Positions 6,262 to 59,963 of a DNA stretch of 64,000 nt are shown piece after piece. Positions within the stretch are counted from its first letter, which is position 1, and every line of letters begins with the position of its first letter. Source of the stretch: Squalus acanthias (Eukaryota). The notes beneath the pieces are model-generated. The model made no database searches. It saw nothing but the letters and a program-made list of their open reading frames with translations, and was not told where the DNA came from. Location of the stretch: the NCBI GenBank assembly GCA_030390025.1, contig CM059435.1, positions 67,580,001 through 67,644,000 on the forward strand. The letters run 5' to 3'. The translations under genes and the position numbers were made by a program.

Positions 6262-6664
6262 CACAACAAGGTCAGGTAGAGCATCACTGGGAACAAGTGT
6301 TTCCAGGTCAGTCACAGCATATCTAGGTACAAATGTTCCCAGGTCAGTTATAGCATAGCCAGCTACAAGTGTTCCCAAGTCAGGTAGAGCATAGCCAGGA
6401 ACACTTGTTCCCAGGTCAGGTAGAGCATAGCCAGCTACAAGTGTTCCCAGGTCAGGTAGAGCATGGCCAAGAACACGTGTTCCCAGGTCAGGTAGAGCAT
6501 GGCCAGGAACAAGTGTTCCCAGGTCAGGTAAAGCATAGCCAAGAACAAGTATTCCCAGGTCAGGTAGAGCATGGTCAAGAACAAGTATTCTCAGGTCAGG
6601 TAGAGCATGGCCAGGAACACTTGTTCCCAGGTCAGGTAGAGCATAGCCAGGAACAAGTGTTCCT
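6262..6664. repeat. Minisatellite, 36-bp unit GTTCCCAGGTCAGGTAGAGCATAGCCAGGAACAAGT, about 11 copies
   Basis: Direct tandem repetition; 12-aa periodicity in the overlapping ORFs. Confidence 0.95.
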
Positions 6665-11533: not shown

Positions 11534-11827
11534 TTGAACAGGGTACGGTCTTTGGAAGCATGACACGTGTTCAGATCATTGTGAGTCCTTTGCCCTTGCA
11601 GCGTTTGGCACAGCCCAACCCATGGCCCAGAAGTTGACTTCTTGTATTTTATTTACTGTATTTGTTCCTTTTTAATACAAGATTATAACATATAGTTCAT
11701 TGTTTAGGGATTTAATGTTTGAGGGGGTCATCTTACTTACAAGTCATTTTGGTGAATGACTAACTCACGCGGGAATGCGTTCACCCACTCCAGCTGTTCT
11801 GCATATTCTGACTTTCCGCGCCACTCA

Positions 11828-11878
11828 CCACTCCCCGTCTCAAACTCTCCATCTCCCAGTCCCCGTCTCAGACTCTCC
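11828..11878. repeat. Two copies of the 28-bp minisatellite unit left of MITE A
   Basis: ccccgtctcaaactctccatctcccagtccccgtctcagactctcc, the same unit as 12967-13499. Confidence 0.85.
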
Positions 11879-12966
11879 GGGCTGCATTTTGTCTTGGGGT
11901 CGGGTTGGGGTCGTGTCATCCGCATTTCGTGTTCCCCCCCCCCGACTCCAGATTAATGTGGATGAATGATGCAATTTTCACTTAATTGGGCAATTGAGTT
12001 CCAGCATGTGGGTTTCCTCCGGGTGCTCCGGTTTCCTCCCACTGTCCAAAAAAAAATGTGCGGGTTAGGTTGATTTGGCTATGATAAATTGACCCTTAGT
12101 GTTAGGGGGGGATTAAATATGTGGGGTTATGGGGATAGGATGGGATATGTTAGGGGGAATTAAATACGTGGGGTTACGGGGGTCGGGTGGGATATGTGTA
12201 CTGTGGGGATTAAGGCAGGGACAGGGTACTGGATTTGAATGATCAGCCATGATCGTATTGAATGGTGGTGCAGGCTCGATGGGCCGAATGGCCTACTCCT
12301 GCTCCTAGATTCTATGTTTGTTTCTATGTTTCTATGTGGGAACCCATGAACTAATTAGTGGTTTCAGTCTGAAAGTCGCCTCTGATGATGTCATCATTGC
12401 TGACTGCCTGGTCTCAGAGACTGTCTGGATGTTGGTGAGAGAGGACCTGCCTGGCTTTTGATGTGAGTGGACCTGGATGCAAAATGAGAGAGAGAGAGAG
12501 TATTTTTTTTCCATCCAAGTCCTCTCACAGCAAAGGCCATGCAGTCTCTGAAGACATTCAATGCAGCAGCATCAGAGGCGACTTTCACACCTAATACTAC
12601 TACTACCTTCATCATCACATCTCCGTTGTAATAGTGGACCTGCAGCTGATAGTCAGCTATCCACTTGTGCTCCCGCCAGGTTTCACTGGAGTGTTTCACA
12701 TCAGGCGTACTTCACGTCGGAAAAGGGTTAAACTAGCTAAAACGTTTCAAAATGGCATTACAGAGCCAATTTAGGGCTTGTTAAGGGCTTTAATGGCCTC
12801 TCCCGCCTCTTGGAGGCGGGACGGAGTCGGGAACACCGCGACTGATTTTGTCAAAATTGCGTGGAGGTGGGATGTAGTCGGGATGGGGTCGGGACCCCCG
12901 ACCCCGCAAATTTAACCCCCCACACGCCTCCAAACCCGACTCCATGGGTCATTCAAAATCCAGCCC
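11879..12966. mobile_element. PIF/Harbinger-like MITE A (carries an HE1 SINE insertion)
   Basis: TIRs GGGCTGCATTTTG / CAAAATCCAGCCC (12 of 13 complementary); 3-bp TSD TCC at 11876-78 and 12967-69; no transposase. Confidence 0.8.
12006..12340 (+). mobile_element. HE1-like V-SINE, 5'-truncated
   Basis: V-SINE core tgggtttcctccgggtgctccggtttcctcccac; CR1-derived tail gatgggccgaatggcctactcctgctcct..(tttctatg)n; flanked by direct ATGTGGG. Confidence 0.85.
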
Positions 12967-13499
12967 TCCATCTCCCAGTCCCCCTCTCAGACTCTCCATC
13001 TCCCAGTCCCCCTCTCAGACTCTCCATCTCCCAGTCCCCCTCTCAGAATCTCCATCTCCCAGTCCCCGTCTCAGACTCTCCATCTCCCAATCCCCCTCTC
13101 AGACTCTCCATCTCCCAGTCCCCCTCTCAGAATCTCCATCTCCCAGTCCCCGTCTCAGACTCTCCATCTCCCAGTCCCCGTCTCAGACTCTCCATCTCCC
13201 AGTCCCCGTCTCAGACTCTCCGTCTCCCAGTCCCCGTCTCAGAATCTCCATCTCCTAGTCCCCGTATCAGACTCTCCATCTCCCAGTCCCTGTCTCAGAC
13301 TCTCCGTTTCCCAGTCCCCGTCTCAGGATCTCCGTCTCCCAGTCTCCATCTCAGACTCTGTCTCCCAGTCCCCGTCTCAGACTCTCCGTCTCCCAGTCCC
13401 CGTCTCAGACTCTCCGTCTCCCAGTCCCCGTCTCTGACTCTCCATCTCCCAGTCCCCGTCTCAGACTCTCAGTCTCCCAGTCCCTGTCTCAGACTCTCG
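12967..13499. repeat. Minisatellite, 28-bp unit CTCCATCTCCCAGTCCCCGTCTCAGACT, about 19 copies
   Basis: Direct tandem repetition. Confidence 0.97.
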
Positions 13500-14338
13500 G
13501 GGCTGGATTTTGCCAGCCGATACGAGTCGGGGGCGGGATTTCTGGTTTCCGTGTTTTAGTCCCGCCCTCAGCGACGTCTGACGAACAAACGCTATTTTCC
13601 CTTGATTGTCCTTGTTAAGCCTGCCAATTAAGGGAAAGCCGGTGTCAGATAACATCAGTGCATGACGCTTCATCTGCCGGTTTTCTTAAAGGGACAGGCC
13701 CCATAATTTTTTGACAGAGTAATTGGTAGTGTTTGACAGCATTGAGGTGCTGTCAAACACTGACAATCACTGTCTAAAGGTGAGCCCTTGCACCCAGGCT
13801 CACCAATGACTCTCTCCTTAGGAGAAAACAGATGGCAGCTGCATGTGAGATTGCAGAAGCCATCTGTCAATTCTCCCGATCAGATGAGGCTTCACAGAAA
13901 CATCAAATCTTGTCACCTGCAGATACATATAAACAGAATAAAAATATTTCTCACTACATTCTCTCACCTGTCATACTTAGCTGTGCGCAATTGCACCCAT
14001 CACACTACCTCTGCAGTTGTCATTTGCACACTTACACTGCAGCAGACCCACAGCTCACCTCACTGACCCTGGCGGGGTTTCCCACCATCGGGAAGCCCGC
14101 ATCAGCAGGCTGAAAATGGGGAAAAGCCTCTTAACTGCCTGTTAACAGGCAGTTAATTGGCTCTAATCCCCCTCCCGCCGCTAGGAGATGGGTCCCTGCG
14201 CGAGTCGGGGACCCGCCTCCCGGGAAGATGGTTCGGAGGCGGATTGGGAGCGGGGTTGGGACCCGCTCCCAATTTTTCCCATTTTCCCAGCAGTCTCGCC
14301 TCCAAATCCGCCTCCTCAGGGCTGGTAAAATCCAGCCC
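13500..14338. mobile_element. PIF/Harbinger-like MITE B
   Basis: TIRs GGGCTGGATTTTGCCAGCC / GGCTGGTAAAATCCAGCCC (18 of 19 complementary); 3-bp TSD TCG at 13497-99 and 14339-41; internal hairpin at 13728-13761 and palindrome at 14131-14156. Confidence 0.85.
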
Positions 14339-16928
14339 TCGATCTCCCAGTCCCCCGTCTCAGACCCTCAGTCCCCCGTCTCAGACCCTCGGTCTCCCAG
14401 TCCCATCTCAGACTCTCGGTCCCCCGTCTCAGACCCTCGGTCTCCCAGTCCCATCTCAGACTCTCGGTCCCCCGTCTCAGACCCTCGGTCTCCCAGTCCC
14501 ATCTCAGACTCTCGGTCCCCCGTCTCAGGCTCTCGGTCTCCCATCCCCGTCTCAGACTCTCGGTCTCCCATCCCCCGTCTCAGACTCTCGGTCTCCCATC
14601 CTTGTCTCAGACTCTAGGTCTCCCATCCCCCGTCTCAGACTCTCGGTCTCCCATCCCCGTCTCAGACTCTCGGTCTCCCATCCCCCGTCTCAGACTCTCG
14701 GTCTCCCATCCTTGTCTCAGACTCTAGGTCTCCCATCCTCGTCTCAGACTCTCGGTCTCCCATCCCCGTCTCAGACTCTCGGTCTCCCATCCCCCGTCTC
14801 AGGCTCTCGGTCCCCCATCTCAGACTCTCGGTCTCCCATCCTTGTCTCAGACTCTAGGTCTCCCATCCTTGTCTCAGACTCTCGGTCCCCCGTCTCAGGT
14901 TCTCGGTCTCCCATCCCCGTCTCAGACTCTCGGTCTCTCATCCTTGTCTCAGACTCTAGGTCTCCCATCCTCGTCTCAGGCTCTCGGTCTCCCAATCTTG
15001 TCTCAGACTCTCGGTCTCCCATCCCCCATCTCAGACTCTCGGTCTCCCATCCTCGTCGCAGGCTCTCGGTCTCCCATCCCTGTCTCAGACTCTCGGTCTC
15101 CCATCCTCGTCTCAGACTCTTGGTCTCCCATCCTCGTCTCAGACTCTCGGTCTCCCATCCCCGTCTCAGACTCTCGGTCTCCCATCCTTGTCTCAGACTC
15201 TAGGTCTCCCATCCTCGTCTCAGACTCTCGGTCTCCCATCCCCGTCTCAGACTTTCGGTCTCCCATCCCCCGTCTCAGACTCTCGGTCTCCCATCCTCGT
15301 CTCAGGCTCTCGATCTCCCATCCCCGTCTCAGGCTCTCGGTCCCCCATCTCAGACTCTAGGTCTCCCATCCTTGTCTCAGACTCTCGGTCCCCCGTCTCA
15401 GGCTCTCGGTCTCCCATCCCCGTCTCAGACACTCGGTCTCCCATCCTTGTCTCAGACTCTAGGTCTCCCATCCTCGTCTCAGGCTCTCGGTCTCCCAATC
15501 TTGTCTCAGACTCTCGGTCTCCCATCCCCCATCTCAGACTCTCGGTCTCCCATCCTCGTCTCAGACTCTCGGTCTCCCATCCTCGTCGCAGGCTCTCGGT
15601 CTCCCATTCCTGTCTCAGACTCTCGGTCTCCCATCCTCGTCGCAGGCTCTCGGTCTCCCATCCCTGTCTCAGACTCTCGGTCTCCCATCCTCGTCTCAGA
15701 CTCTTGGTCTCCCATCCTCGTCTCAGGCTCTCGGTCTCCTATCCCCGTCTCAGACTCTCGGTCTCCCATCCCTGTCTCAGACTCTCGGTCTCCCATCCCC
15801 GTCTCAGACTCTCGGTCTCCCATTCCCCCGTCTCAGACTCTCGGTCTCCCATCCCTGTCTCAGACTCTCGGTCTCCCATCCCCATCTCAGACTCTCGGTC
15901 TCCCATCCCCGTCTCAGGCTCTCGGTCTCCCATCCTCGTCTCAGACTCTCGGTCTCCCATCCCCCATCTCAGACTCTCGGTCTCCCATCCCCGTCTCAGA
16001 CTCTCGGTCTCCCATCCCCGTCTCAGGCTCTCGGTCTCCCATCCCCGTCTCAGACTCTCGGTCTCCCATCCCCCATCTCAGACTCTCGGTCTCCCATCCC
16101 CGTCTCAGACTCTCGGTCTCCCATCCCCCGTCTCAGACTCTCGGTCTCCCATCCCCGTCTCAGACTCTCAGTCTCCCATCCCCGTCTCAGGCTCTTGGTC
16201 TCCCATCCCCGTCTCAGACTCTCGGTCTCCCATCCCCGTCTCAGACTCTCGGTCTCCCATCCCCATCTCAGACTCTCGGTCTCCCATCCCTGTCTCAGAC
16301 TCTCGGTCTCCCATCCCCGTCTCAGACTCTCGGTCTCCCATCCCCATCTCAGACTCTCGGTCTCCCATCCCCGTCTCAGACTCTCGGTCTCCCATCCCCG
16401 TCTCAGACTCTCGGTCTTCCATCCCCGTCTCAGACTCTCGGGCTACCATCCCCCGTCTCAGACTCTCGGTCTCCCATCCCCATCTCAGACTCTCGGTCTC
16501 CCATTCCCCCATCTCAGACTCTCGGTCTCCCAATCTTGTCTCAGACTCTCGGTCTCCCATCCCCGTCTCAGACTCTCGGTCTCCCATTCCCCCATCTCAG
16601 ACTCTCGGTCTCCCAATCTTGTCTCAGACTCTCGGTCTCCCATCCCCGTCTCAGACTCTCGGTCTCCCATCCCCGTCTCAGACTCTCGGTCTTCCATCCC
16701 CGTCTCAGACTCTCGGTCTCCCATCCTCGTCTCAGACTCTCGGTCTCCCATCCCCGTCTCAGACTCTCGGTCTTCCATCCCCGTCTCAGACTCTCGGTCT
16801 CCTATCCCCTGTCTCAGACTTTCGGTCTTCCATCCCCGTCTCAGACTCTCGGTCTTCCATCCCCGTCTCAGACTCTCGGTCTCCCATCCCCGTCTCAGGC
16901 TCTCGGGCTTCCATTCCCCGCTCTCAGC
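14339..16928. repeat. Minisatellite, 27-28-bp unit CTCGGTCTCCCATCCCCGTCTCAGACT, roughly 95 copies
   Basis: Direct tandem repetition over about 2.6 kb; C-rich + strand. Confidence 0.98.
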
Positions 16929-20774: not shown

Positions 20775-21236
20775 CCATAGGAGAGTTGATGCACTGTAGG
20801 GATGGGCTTTGATGGGAGAGTTGATGCGCTGTAGGAATGGGCTTCGATGGGAGAGTTGATGCGCTGTAGGGATGGGCTTTGATGGGAGAGTTGATGCGCT
20901 GTAGGGATGGGCTTCGATGGGAGAGTTGATGCACTGTAGGAATGGGCTTTGATGGGAGAGTTGATGCGCTGTAGGAATGGGCTTCGATGGGAGAGTTGAT
21001 GCGCTGTAGGGATGGGCTTTGATGGGAGAGTTGATGCGCTGTAGGGATGGGCTTCGATGGGAGAGTTGATGCACTGTAGGAATGGGCTTTGATGGGAGAG
21101 TCGATGCACTGTAGGAATGGGCTTTGATGGGAGAGTCGATGCACCGTAGGGATGGGCTTTGATGGGAGACTTGATGCACTGTAGGAATGGGCTTCAATGG
21201 GAGAGTCGATGCGCTGTAGGGATGGGTTATGATGAG
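20775..21236. repeat. Minisatellite, 35-bp unit GATGGGAGAGTTGATGCRCTGTAGGRATGGGCTTY, about 13 copies
   Basis: Direct tandem repetition. Confidence 0.96.
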
Positions 21237-28195: not shown

Positions 28196-29590
28196 GGTGT
28201 GGGGGTTGGGAGTTCAGGGGTTGGGGGTGTTGGCAGTGGGTGGGTTGGGAGTGCTGGGGTTTGGGGGTGATGGCAGTGGGCGGGGTGGGAGTGCTGGGGT
28301 TTGGGGGTGTTGGCAGTGGGCGAGGTGGGAGTGCTGGGGTTGGGGGTGTTGGCAGTGGGCAGGTTGGGAGTTCAGGGGTTGGGGGTGTTGACAGTGGGCG
28401 GGGTGGGAGTGCTGGGGTTTGGGGGTGATGGCAGTGGGCGGGGTGGGAGTGCTGGGGTTTGGGGGTGATGGCAGTGGGCGGGTTGGCATTGCTGGGGTTG
28501 GGGGTGTTGGCGGTGGGCGTGCTGGGGTTTGAGGTGCAGGGTTTGGGATGTTGGCAGTGGGCGGGCTGGGAGTGCTGGGGTTTGGGGTGTTGGTAGTGGG
28601 CAGGGTGGGATTGCTGGGGTTTGGGGGAGCTGGGGTTGGGAGTGCTGTGGTTTGGGGTGTTGGCAGTGGGCGGGTTGGGAGTGCTGGGGTTTTGGGGGTG
28701 TTGGCGGTGGGCGTGCTGGGGTTTGGGGTGTTGGCAGTGGGCGTGCTGGGGTTTGGGGGTGTTGGCAGTGGGCGGGTTGGGAGTGCTGGGGTTTTGGGGG
28801 TGTTGGCGGTGGGCGTGCTGTGGTTTGGGGTGTTGGCAGTGGGCGGGGTGGGAGTGCTGGGGTTTGGGGGTGTTGGCAGTGGGCGGGGTGGGAGTGTTGT
28901 GGTTTGGGGTGTTGGCAGTGGGCGGGATGGGAGTGCTGTGGTTTGGGGTGTTGGCAGTGGGCGGGATGGGAGTGCTGTGGTTTGGGGTGTTGGCAGTGGG
29001 CGGGATGGGAGTGCTGTGGTTTGGGGTGTTGGCAGTGGGCAGGGTGGGAGTGCTGTGGTTTGGGGTGTTGGCAGTGGGCGGGGTGGGAGTGCTGTGGTTT
29101 GGGGTGTTGGCAGTGGGCGGGATGGGAGTGCTGGGGTTTGGGGTGTTGGCAGTGGGCGGGATGGGAGTGCTGGGGTTTGGGGTGTTGGCAGTGGGCGGGG
29201 TGGGAGTGTTGTGGTTTGGGGTGTTGGCAGTGGGCGGGTTGGCAGTAGGCGGGTTGGGGGTGTTGGCAGTGGGCGGGATGGGAGTGCTGGGGTTTGGGGT
29301 GTTGGCAGTGGGCGGGATGGGAGTGCTGTGGTTTGGGGTGTTGGCAGTGGGCGGGATGGGAGTGCTGTGGTTTGGGGTGTTGGCAGTGGGCGGGATGGGA
29401 GTGCTGTGGTTTGGGGTGTTGGCAGTGGGCGGGATGGGAGTGCTGTGGTTTGGGGTGTTGGCAGTGGGCGGGATGGGAGTGCTGTGGTTTGGGGTGTTGG
29501 CAGTGGGCAGGATGGGAGTGCTGGGGTTTGGGGGTGTTGGCAGTGGGCAGGGTGGGATTGCTGGGGTTTGGGGGAGCTGGGGTTGGGAGA
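28196..29590. repeat. G-rich minisatellite, about 39-bp unit TTGGCAGTGGGCGGGATGGGAGTGCTGTGGTTTGGGGTG
   Basis: Tandem repetition; 13-aa periodicity in the spurious ORFs. Confidence 0.96.
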
Positions 29591-29675
29591 ACCGGAGTTT
29601 GGAGTCAGGGTGTTAATGGTGTCCGCGTTGGAAATGGGGTGGGGTATTTGGGAGTGGGGAGGTTGGGGGTAATGG

Positions 29676-30238
29676 AGCCGGGTTGGGATTGGGGATGCCG
29701 GGATTGGGGATGCTGGGATTGGGATTGGGGGTGCCAGGGTTGGGATTGGGGTGCCGGGATTGGGATTGGGGATGCCAGGATTGGGGATGCTGGGATTGAG
29801 ATTGGGGCTGCCGGGATTGGGATTGGGGGTGCCAGGGTTGGGATTGGGGATGCTGGGATTGGGGATGCCGGGATTGGGGATGCCGGGATTGGGGGTATTG
29901 GGATTGGGGTGCCGGGATTGGGATTGGGGGTACTGGGGTTGGGATTAGGGGTGCCAGATTTGGGATTGGGGGTGCCGGGATTGGGGCGCCGGGGTTGGGA
30001 TTGGGATTGGGATTGGGGTTTGGGGGTGCCAGAGTTGGGATTGGGGGTGCCGGGGTTGGGATTGGGATTGGGGGTACCGGGGTTGGGATTGGGGGTGCCA
30101 GAGTTGGGATTGGGGGCCCCGGATTGGGATTGGGGGTAACCGGGTTGGGATTGAGGGTGCTGGGGTTGGGATTGGGGGGCCGGGGTTGGGATTGGGGGTG
30201 CCGGGATTAGGATTGTGGGTGCCAGGGTTGGGATTGCG
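29676..30238. repeat. G-rich repeat built from GGGATT hexamers and GGGGTGCC blocks
   Basis: Runs such as gggattgggattgggggtgcc repeated. Confidence 0.93.
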
Positions 30239-31915: not shown

Positions 31916-33348
31916 CCACTCAATTCAATGTTAAAATTCTCATCAGCACTTATATGGTTTGATATAAACAGAAGGTATATTTAGCAGCAATTTGACGGAA
32001 AATTATACCATGTGCCGTGTAGTGCAGAAGCTATTACCCACTGTTAGTTGGATGCTAAAGTCCATCTTATCGGTTATTTTTGGCAGTGCTACCAAGTCAA
32101 GGAGAATTGCTCTTAATGGCCAGCAGGGAATATATAAAGAAAATAAATTCCTCTTGATTTCTTCAAATCAAATGTTCCAATAAATGGTTTGGTGAAAGCT
32201 ATTTTGGTTATCGGGCGTCATGTAACTAGCGGGCTATCTGTTAGATGGATCCACCTCATTTCCATGGAGATGGTCAGATCTTCCCCTGCCAGCGGGCAGA
32301 AGTGCCCTTAAATGATTGAAGAATGTGCAAGGCAATACGTTAACGGTCACCATTCCAGCTTGGGTTGCTTCTCCAACTCCAACTCCAACTCATTCTTCCT
32401 CAGGACCAAGGAACTCCTTACCACCGTCAGTCTTCCCTTCCTCCTGCGGAATCCGAGCTTTTAAAACCCAGGCTTGACATCACCAGATCACAATCTTCTG
32501 ATTCACCACATCGTGTCTCCTCCTCTTTTCGACCTCGAGACTGTCTTGCCCTGGGGACCTTGTCCGCTCACTTTGGTTTCGTAATTTAAAATAAGAAATC
32601 GGGGATTTGTGCAGGCTAATTGGAAATTTAGAGAACAGTAAGTTTGCCAGTTCTTGGGAATTGTGAATGTGTTTGTGTTCCAATTGATTTTTATGGACTT
32701 AAAATAAGACCTTAGACCCAAGAGTTAGCTTGATGTACAACCGAAGGTGAGGTGTGTGTCCCCAATACATTGGCTTGATTGACTGTGAATTGTAGAGGTT
32801 GAGTAATGAGGCAGAGTTGCCCAGATTTGACTTGAGAAGTTGCTGGTTCAAAAAAAAAACTCAAAGCAGACCTGCCAACTCTTGAGGCTTGGAAGAAATG
32901 CCTATTGTTCGAATACTGGCAAAAGGCTTGACGAGCAGTCAAACAGTGGCACACTGGGAGCATTTAAAGCCCCATGGAAAATCTCGCCTTTCTCTTCGGT
33001 GGTGGATATCTTTCCATACCAATAGCGTTGTCACCAGGAAACCCCCCCCCACAAAAAAAATGCTTTCTGTTCAGATTTGGAGAACAAAGTGTTCCTGCCA
33101 AAAAAATGTCTTGAAGGCTCTGTGTTGTCCTTCGCGGGCGGGGGAGGGGTCATGTTGTTATGCCACTGTTGGATTGGCTTAGAATTAGCCCAGGCTGTTC
33201 AGAATAGTGACGCATTGTTTTTGACATCGTCCGCAGTGGTAGCAGATGAGTGAGCGAGTGCGATGGGTTGGCATGATCTATCACCATTTACTAATTGGAG
33301 TTTCTCCTTTGCAAGAAAAATAGATGGCACACGGGTTGTAGTGCTATT

Positions 33349-33485
33349 AGAAACTGTCCTGAATGATGATGAGCTATAAGAAACTGTACTGAATGATGAG
33401 CTATGAGAAACTGTCCTGAATGATGAGCTGTGAGAAACTGTACTGAATGATGAGCTGTGAGAAACTGTACTGAATGATGAGCTAT
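33349..33485. repeat. Minisatellite, 27-bp unit AGAAACTGTMCTGAATGATGAGCTRTG, 5 copies
   Basis: Direct tandem repetition. Confidence 0.93.
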
Positions 33486-59636: not shown

Positions 59637-59963
59637 GAGAGAGATAGAGAGGGAGGGGGAAGAGCAGGAGAGAGTGTAGCTCAGATAGAGAGGGAGGGGG
59701 AAGAACAGGTGAGAGAGAGTAGCTCAGATAGAGAGGGAGGGGAGAGAGTAGCTCAGATAGAGAGGGAGGGGGAAGAGCAGGAGAGAGAGTGTAGCTCAGA
59801 TAGAGAGGGAGGGGGAAGAGCAGGAGAGAGAGTGTAGCTCAGATAGAGAGGAAGGGGGAAGAACAGGAGAGAGAGTGTAGCTCAGATAGAGAGGAAGGGG
59901 GAAGAGCAGGAGAGAGAGTGTAGCTCAGATAGAGAGGGAGGGGGGAAGAGCAGGAGAGAGAGA
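59637..59963. repeat. Purine-rich minisatellite, about 42-45-bp unit (GAGAGAGTGTAGCTCAGATAGAGAGGGAGGGGGAAGAGCAG), about 7 copies
   Basis: Direct tandem repetition. Confidence 0.92.

What the first reader, a model, noticed from the sequence alone, without database searches (positions are those of the whole stretch)
11828..14345. Two Harbinger-like MITEs inserted at the same position of a minisatellite unit: a satellite acting as a transposon landing pad
Seen: MITE A (11879-12966) and MITE B (13500-14338) share GGGCTGSATTTT termini but have largely different interiors. Each interrupts the 28-bp unit immediately after CAGACTC-TCN and duplicates that triplet (TCC and TCG). Established: 3-bp TSDs and GGGC-type TIRs mark PIF/Harbinger elements, and zebrafish Harbinger3_DR prefers an extended target recalled as AAACAC-CWG-GTCTTT. 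Inference: the unit context AGACTC-TCN-RTCTCC resembles that target, so the array may be a multimerised Harbinger target site, or may have been seeded by insertion and excision footprints.
Basis: partly seen in the sequence, partly recalled or inferred. Interest (0 to 1): 0.72.

Follow-up and report, generated by a model that had tools for sequence, protein, structure and literature searches.

The report
Harbinger target preference hits a minisatellite
Two different non-coding jumping elements sit at the same position of a tandem repeat's unit, most likely because that unit happens to resemble the landing sequence their family prefers all over this genome, which is known behaviour for this kind of transposon.

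Summary
Observation confirmed. A (11879-12966, TSD TCC) and B (13500-14338, TSD TCG) are independent insertions of two abundant non-autonomous Harbinger families. A carries a nested SINE-like insert and derives from a 4.2-4.3 kb Myb + DDE element found here. Other genomic copies show a palindromic target, roughly RA(C/G)(A/T)C-WWW-G(T/A)(G/C)TY, whose arms match zebrafish Harbinger3_DR. Matrices trained without this locus put 88-97% of predicted insertions in the array at the one register both elements use, and rate the array 12-45 times background. Same-base re-use is the rule for the family: one base in a LINE reverse-transcriptase region is filled in 724 of 4331 exact sites. So 'landing pad' holds as passive mimicry. 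The origin ideas do not: the array is single-locus, looks like a diverged 14-mer dimer, shows no footprints in 117 units, and 0 of 102 other sampled sites lie in a minisatellite. Unexplained: both insertions used weaker ATC units, not the 98 better GTC units. Ordinary mechanism, clean example.

The parts
11828..11878 (+). Left stub of the 28-bp minisatellite (about 1.8 units), ending in the left TSD copy TCC (11876-11878)
11879..12966 (+). Element A: non-autonomous Harbinger, about 760 bp plus nested insert; ends 86-90% identical to the ends of a 4.2-4.3 kb two-gene Harbinger
   Evidence: 1.2-2.0% from family majority
12013..12333 (+). Nested 321-bp SINE-like retroposon insert flanked by a 7-bp direct repeat (12006-12012, 12334-12340), with a short-repeat tail; V-SINE/HE1 identity is recalled, not tested
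   Evidence: the 39 best other A copies skip query 135-454; joint skipping 328; 75 hits, 5 of 200 bp or more, in fetched loci
12967..13499 (+). 28-bp block of the minisatellite (19 units); begins with A's right TSD (TCC) and ends with B's left TSD (TCG, 13497-13499)
13500..14338 (+). Element B: 839-bp non-autonomous Harbinger-type element of a second, older family, with internal hairpins
   Evidence: 3.8% from the majority of its 29 best-hit copies
14339..16927 (+). B's right TSD (TCG) then the 27-bp block of the minisatellite (about 95 units); higher-scoring target units, none occupied

Best explanation
Two non-autonomous Harbinger elements of different families occupy the same register of a single-locus minisatellite, most likely because each unit carries by chance one good match to the family's palindromic target. 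Shown: 3-bp TSDs, shared 12-13 bp ends, a palindromic flank consensus in other copies, a two-gene (Myb + DDE) parent for A, and a target matrix that singles out this register. Inferred: Myb and transposase proteins supplied in trans cut with a 3-nt stagger at the centre of the palindrome. Inferred order: array first, then B, then A, then the SINE-like insert. The array is a passive mimic of the target, like the much stronger hot spots in LINE copies.
For: 57 position-ordered A copies: 38 of 57 exact 3-bp TSD, 0 of 57 at 4, 5, 8 or 9 bp; symmetric arms with A at -7 in 92% and C at -4 in 75% of 114 half-sites. Same bias in 61 held-out A ends, 39 B ends and 12 other ends. Six training sets, two widths: register share 0.88-0.97, relative rate 12-45x; six other arrays in the window 0.03-0.25x. 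With 72,543 exact ends genome-wide the present array expects 0.4-1.4 insertions against 0.03 at random. Calibration: one LINE site filled in 724 of 4331 exact sites (17%) against 20% predicted for a near-identical site. 49 of 230 ends fall in 11 clusters of re-used flanks, with both families and both orientations. An A-family copy sits at an equivalent register in an unrelated 33-bp minisatellite (L162). Parent element. Satellite units joined to a B-type end in runs of two other organisms.
Against: Both insertions are in ATC units, which hold 15 of 117 units and 1-2% (matrix) or 5-9% (empirical) of expected insertions; 98 better GTC units are empty. If only the 28-bp block existed at the time, P of two hits is about 0.001-0.003 per array, so the pair is still a somewhat lucky draw. 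Both sites score modestly (21st percentile of 38 true sites) and their TSDs are C/G-rich, whereas the family prefers WWW. The matrix assumes independent positions.
Confidence: 0.87

Rival explanations
1. The array is a multimerised Harbinger target, seeded or expanded by insertion and excision.
For: Each unit holds one good target match. B lies near the change from 28-bp to 27-bp units. Only 1.6% of random 28-mers reach 10x when tandemised.
Against: No unit of 117 has a duplicated triplet at the register. PIF/Harbinger excision is usually perfect (PMC2836001 passages). The unit's two 14-mer halves match at 10 of 14 positions, which suggests ordinary slippage. Variant gradients run across B rather than switching at it. 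The exact 29-mer pattern occurs only here (7 of 7 matches). 0 of 102 other sites lie in a minisatellite. One 26-bp unit (13349) lacks 2 bp at the register, which slippage explains as well.
Confidence: 0.04
2. Something beyond sequence drew the second insertion: B's ends recruit transposase locally, or chromatin or CpG methylation opens the 28-bp block and closes the 27-bp block.
For: A landed 533 bp from B in a weak unit while better units are empty. 3 extra exact ends within 600 bp of 61 index elements against 1.4 expected.
Against: The neighbour excess is small (13 ends observed, 10.6 expected overall) and partly nesting. B's own TSD contains a CpG. A later expansion of the 27-bp block would explain the pattern, although both blocks are equally diverged (5%).
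Confidence: 0.07
3. Pure coincidence, or one insertion duplicated with the array.
For: About 56,000 minisatellites are expected genome-wide (9 in 594 kb), and a shared register has a 1/28 chance.
Against: The families, TSDs and ages differ. The shared register is the one predicted in advance from other loci.
Confidence: 0.02

Closest known systems
Harbinger3_DR / Harbinger3N_DR of zebrafish (passages of PMC3016246 and PMC2836001; the primary paper was not held)
   Same: Two-gene Myb + DDE parent with non-autonomous derivatives, 3-bp TSD, extended palindromic target; arms AAACAC / GTCTTT fit the RA(C/G)(A/T)C consensus found here.
   Different: Central triplet is degenerate and WWW-biased (19 different triplets among 38 TSDs), not CWG; perfect TIRs are only 12-13 bp; about 36,000 or more copies share these ends.
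Tourist-like MITEs such as mPing (PMC2836001 passages)
   Same: Short non-coding elements mobilised in trans by PIF/Harbinger; 3-bp TSD; extended target preference.
   Different: Longer (760-850 bp); target about 15-17 bp rather than 9 bp; TSD not fixed to TAA/TTA.
Target-specific DNA transposons such as Dada (PMC3706591, PMC8869645; search listing and start of abstract only)
   Same: Repeated insertion at one base of a multicopy sequence.
   Different: No dedicated target here: most copies lie at unrelated sites, and the best single site holds about 1% of exact ends.

Membership tests
PIF/Harbinger (non-autonomous) | 3-bp TSD | tested here: met
   TCC and TCG here; 38 of 57 exact, 47 of 57 within one mismatch, 0 at 4, 5, 8, 9 bp; B family 10 of 18 exact
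PIF/Harbinger (non-autonomous) | Terminal inverted repeats (25-50 bp typical, PMC9179366 passage) | tested here: met
   12-13 bp near-perfect; B extends to 31 bp at 81%; shorter than typical
PIF/Harbinger (non-autonomous) | Parent with DDE transposase and Myb/SANT genes sharing the ends: element A | tested here: met
   L091 4477-8754 and L119 1124-5333, 95.6% alike, own 3-bp TSDs; PF13873 and PF13359 over cut-off on opposite strands; A matches their first 197 and last 353 bp at 86-90%. Both copies have broken frames.
PIF/Harbinger (non-autonomous) | Parent with both genes: element B | tested here: inconclusive
   Only 42 bp at 79% to the L119 end; no parent among loci held; no dedicated search was run
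PIF/Harbinger (non-autonomous) | Extended palindromic target preference | tested here: met
PIF/Harbinger (non-autonomous) | Mobilisation in trans and precise excision | not testable with these tools
   taken from PMC2836001 passages
Harbinger3_DR-type target | Central CWG triplet | tested here: not met
   0 of 38 exact TSDs are CAG or CTG; WWW-biased
Satellite-targeting transposon | Enrichment of insertions in tandem repeats genome-wide | tested here: not met
   1 of 102 empty sites in any tandem repeat (an 8-mer, 2.5 copies), 0 in a minisatellite; background cover 2.4% and 0.4%. A small enrichment cannot be excluded at this sample size.
V-SINE / HE1 (nested insert) | V-domain and LINE-derived tail | not tested
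   resemblance recalled; PMC4824008 passages only state that HE1 is a shark and ray V-SINE; no Rfam match at gathering level

The most novel reading that the evidence does not exclude
This Harbinger lineage's target has been tuned to abundant repeats as safe havens: it fills one base just past the reverse-transcriptase FADD motif in about one in six intact LINE copies, so it acts as a genome-wide disabler of LINEs, and the minisatellite is a bystander that reads out the same preference. Against tuning: the arms already match the zebrafish consensus, so the preference may simply be old.
Probability: 0.12. Interest if true: 0.6.

Novelty: new member of a known kind. Interest (0 to 1): 0.3.

Why it matters
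As a locus it matters little: it is a predicted consequence of a known property of the superfamily. Its use is as a clean natural test. A target matrix from unrelated sites predicts the register in the array and, within a few points, the fill rate of a LINE hot spot. It also warns that same-base insertions of these elements recur often, so they are homoplasy-prone markers, and it gives a target consensus for a vertebrate Harbinger family that my searches did not find described in the held library.

Tried and rejected
Tandem duplication of one insertion: rejected. Best Pfam DDE_Tnp_4 hits as the parent: the 30 loci belong to a family with other ends (GGCCCAAAAATT-type) and do not match A or B ends; the parent was found instead among A-end loci. 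Rfam: six weak matches, all under gathering scores. Host gene: 130 of 246 non-repeat ORFs scanned (602-35039; five array ORFs and all beyond 35039 left out), none over cut-off, so intron status is open. No RNA holder listed. Empty alleles: contigs break inside the array, so presence or absence of A and B in other individuals could not be scored; a 55-letter contig over A's left junction in X2 is under the 31-letters-each-side rule, and X2 may be the source sample. The unique flank 11640-11819 had no cover in X6 and X8, so their junction contigs are unanchored. The primary Harbinger3_DR paper was not held. Findings look-ups near the locus and by words returned nothing. No supplements were read.

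Full report
Observation. The window lies at G000:C11:67580001-67644000 in a 3.71 Gb genome. A spans 11879-12966 between TCC copies and B spans 13500-14338 between TCG copies; both follow CAGACTC-TCN and removal restores a normal unit. The array has a 1.8-unit stub left of A, 19 units of 28 bp between the elements, and about 95 units of 27 bp to 16927. An exact 29-letter unit pattern has 7 matches in the genome, all at this locus, so this is a single-locus minisatellite rather than a dispersed satellite family.

The elements. B's 39 best other copies are 88-93% identical over most of its length. A's 39 best other copies match its first 134 and last 633 bases at 89-98% and skip a 321-bp insert flanked by a 7-bp repeat; the insert is itself a dispersed repeat and looks SINE-like (family name recalled). 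A and B share only terminal matches. A is 1.2-2.0% from its family majority and B 3.8% from that of its best hits. An exact A-type left end occurs 4040 times with a non-A base 15 letters upstream; the shared 12-letter end occurs 72,543 times against 113 for the control. Two of 61 sampled A-type left ends belong to 4.2-4.3 kb elements with their own 3-bp TSDs, a Myb/SANT frame on one strand and a DDE_Tnp_4 frame on the other; A matches their ends at 86-90%. A is therefore a derived non-autonomous Harbinger. B is assigned by ends, TSD and target only.

Target. I fetched 60 regions around the first 61 of the 100 listed A ends (C1, in positional order). 57 of 61 had a paired right end within 1.5 kb. 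38 of 57 have an exact 3-bp TSD and none a 4, 5, 8 or 9 bp one. Both arms show the same bias, giving RA(C/G)(A/T)C-WWW-G(T/A)(G/C)TY. Held-out A ends (61), B ends (39) and other ends (12) agree: mean half-site score 3.6-4.6 against -5.2 for background. The arms fit the zebrafish Harbinger3_DR consensus AAACACCWGGTCTTT (PMC3016246, passages); the centre does not.

Test on the array. With both elements removed, the matrix puts 91% of predicted insertions at the register both use, and rates the array 20x background; six other arrays in the window rate 0.03-0.25x. Across six training sets, including de-duplicated and non-A sets, the share is 0.88-0.97 and the rate 12-45x, with wide bootstrap ranges (4-92x). 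Expected insertions in today's array are 0.4-1.4, against 0.03 at random. The model is calibrated by a LINE hot spot just past the FADD motif (translation; RVT_1 match): 724 filled against 3607 empty exact sites, 17%, with 20% predicted for a near-identical site. This count needs an exact 12-letter end for filled sites and only 4 more letters for empty ones, so it is rough. Re-use of one base is common: 49 of 230 ends fall in 11 flank clusters that mix families and orientations. Among 19 other ends with this locus's right-flank motif, one A-family copy sits at an equivalent register in an unrelated 33-bp minisatellite and one element in a CT-rich array.

Origin of the array. Footprint seeding is unlikely. 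No unit of 117 repeats the triplet, and excision in this superfamily is usually perfect (PMC2836001, passages). The unit's halves match at 10 of 14 positions. Unit variants change gradually across B (TCC to TCA to TCG before it, CCCAGT to CCCAT about seven units after it). In runs of two other organisms, contigs of 103 and 63 letters join satellite units to a B-type end. They lack unique flank, so they show either the orthologous older insertion or a further independent one. A's interior is barely represented in those two runs while B's is abundant; depth is no copy number, so this is a hint that A's burst is later. Other sites are not satellite-enriched: 0 of 102 in a minisatellite.

Against my reading. 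Both sites score at the 21st percentile of true sites, and both are ATC units. Such units are 15 of 117 and should take 1-2% of insertions by the matrix or 5-9% by counts. A younger 27-bp block would explain this, but both blocks are 5% diverged from their majority unit. If only the 28-bp block was available, two hits have P about 0.001-0.003, and a rough genome-wide sum gives 1-3 such arrays, or up to 50 for arrays of today's size. Local clustering of elements is slight.

Mechanism. Shown: ends, TSDs, target consensus, register prediction, parent of A. From established knowledge (PMC2836001, PMC9179366, passages): the Myb protein binds the ends and brings in the transposase. Inferred: trans-mobilisation, a 3-nt staggered cut at the centre of the palindrome, and the order array, B, A, SINE-like insert.

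Novelty. Extended target preference is a known feature of PIF/Harbinger, 15 bp in vertebrates (PMC2836001). Searches for shark Harbinger targets or minisatellite hot spots found nothing pertinent (held library only; the primary zebrafish paper was not held). PMC9179366 (passages) reports no Harbinger in elephant shark and asks for other cartilaginous fish to be examined. Papers on Dada were seen as listings only. Verdict: real, well explained, a new member of a known kind; interest 0.3.

Noticed in passing
G000-wide; examples L078, L104, L112, L052, L008: One base just past the FADD motif of a LINE reverse transcriptase is filled by these elements in 724 of 4331 exact sites (about 17%, 1% of all exact ends), by both families and in both orientations; one element with other ends sits there too.
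   Followed up: partly
L002, L004, L033, L060, L088, L089, L091: A second re-used site in LINE-like coding sequence is hit by A, B, another family and the two-gene parent.
   Followed up: partly
window 11634-11636: Contigs from all four laid runs break here with 67-328 further unaligned letters, so the window's allele seems to lack a stretch present in other individuals and relatives; the left side resembles the end of another Harbinger family.
   Followed up: no
L131-L160: A second, young Harbinger family with GGCCCAAAAATT-type ends, many open 384-391 aa transposase frames and copies up to 99% alike.
   Followed up: partly
L162 (G000:C1:229873648-229876669): A-family element inserted at a target-like register of an unrelated 33-bp minisatellite of 6.5 copies.
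   Followed up: partly
L093, L098: A-family copies nested inside other elements with the same ends; in L093 at a palindrome that also occurs in B.
   Followed up: no
L064-L123: 10 of 57 paired A copies have TSDs differing at two or more of three positions, which seems more than about 5% divergence should give; recombination between copies is a possible cause.
   Followed up: no
window 13711-13778, 13828-13867, 14125-14162; 12367-12590: Internal hairpins and nested inverted repeats in B and A.
   Followed up: no
window 6269-6663, 20780-21234, 28203-30236, 33343-33485, 59642-59962: The window is rich in other minisatellites; none has these element ends, and all score below background as targets.
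   Followed up: yes
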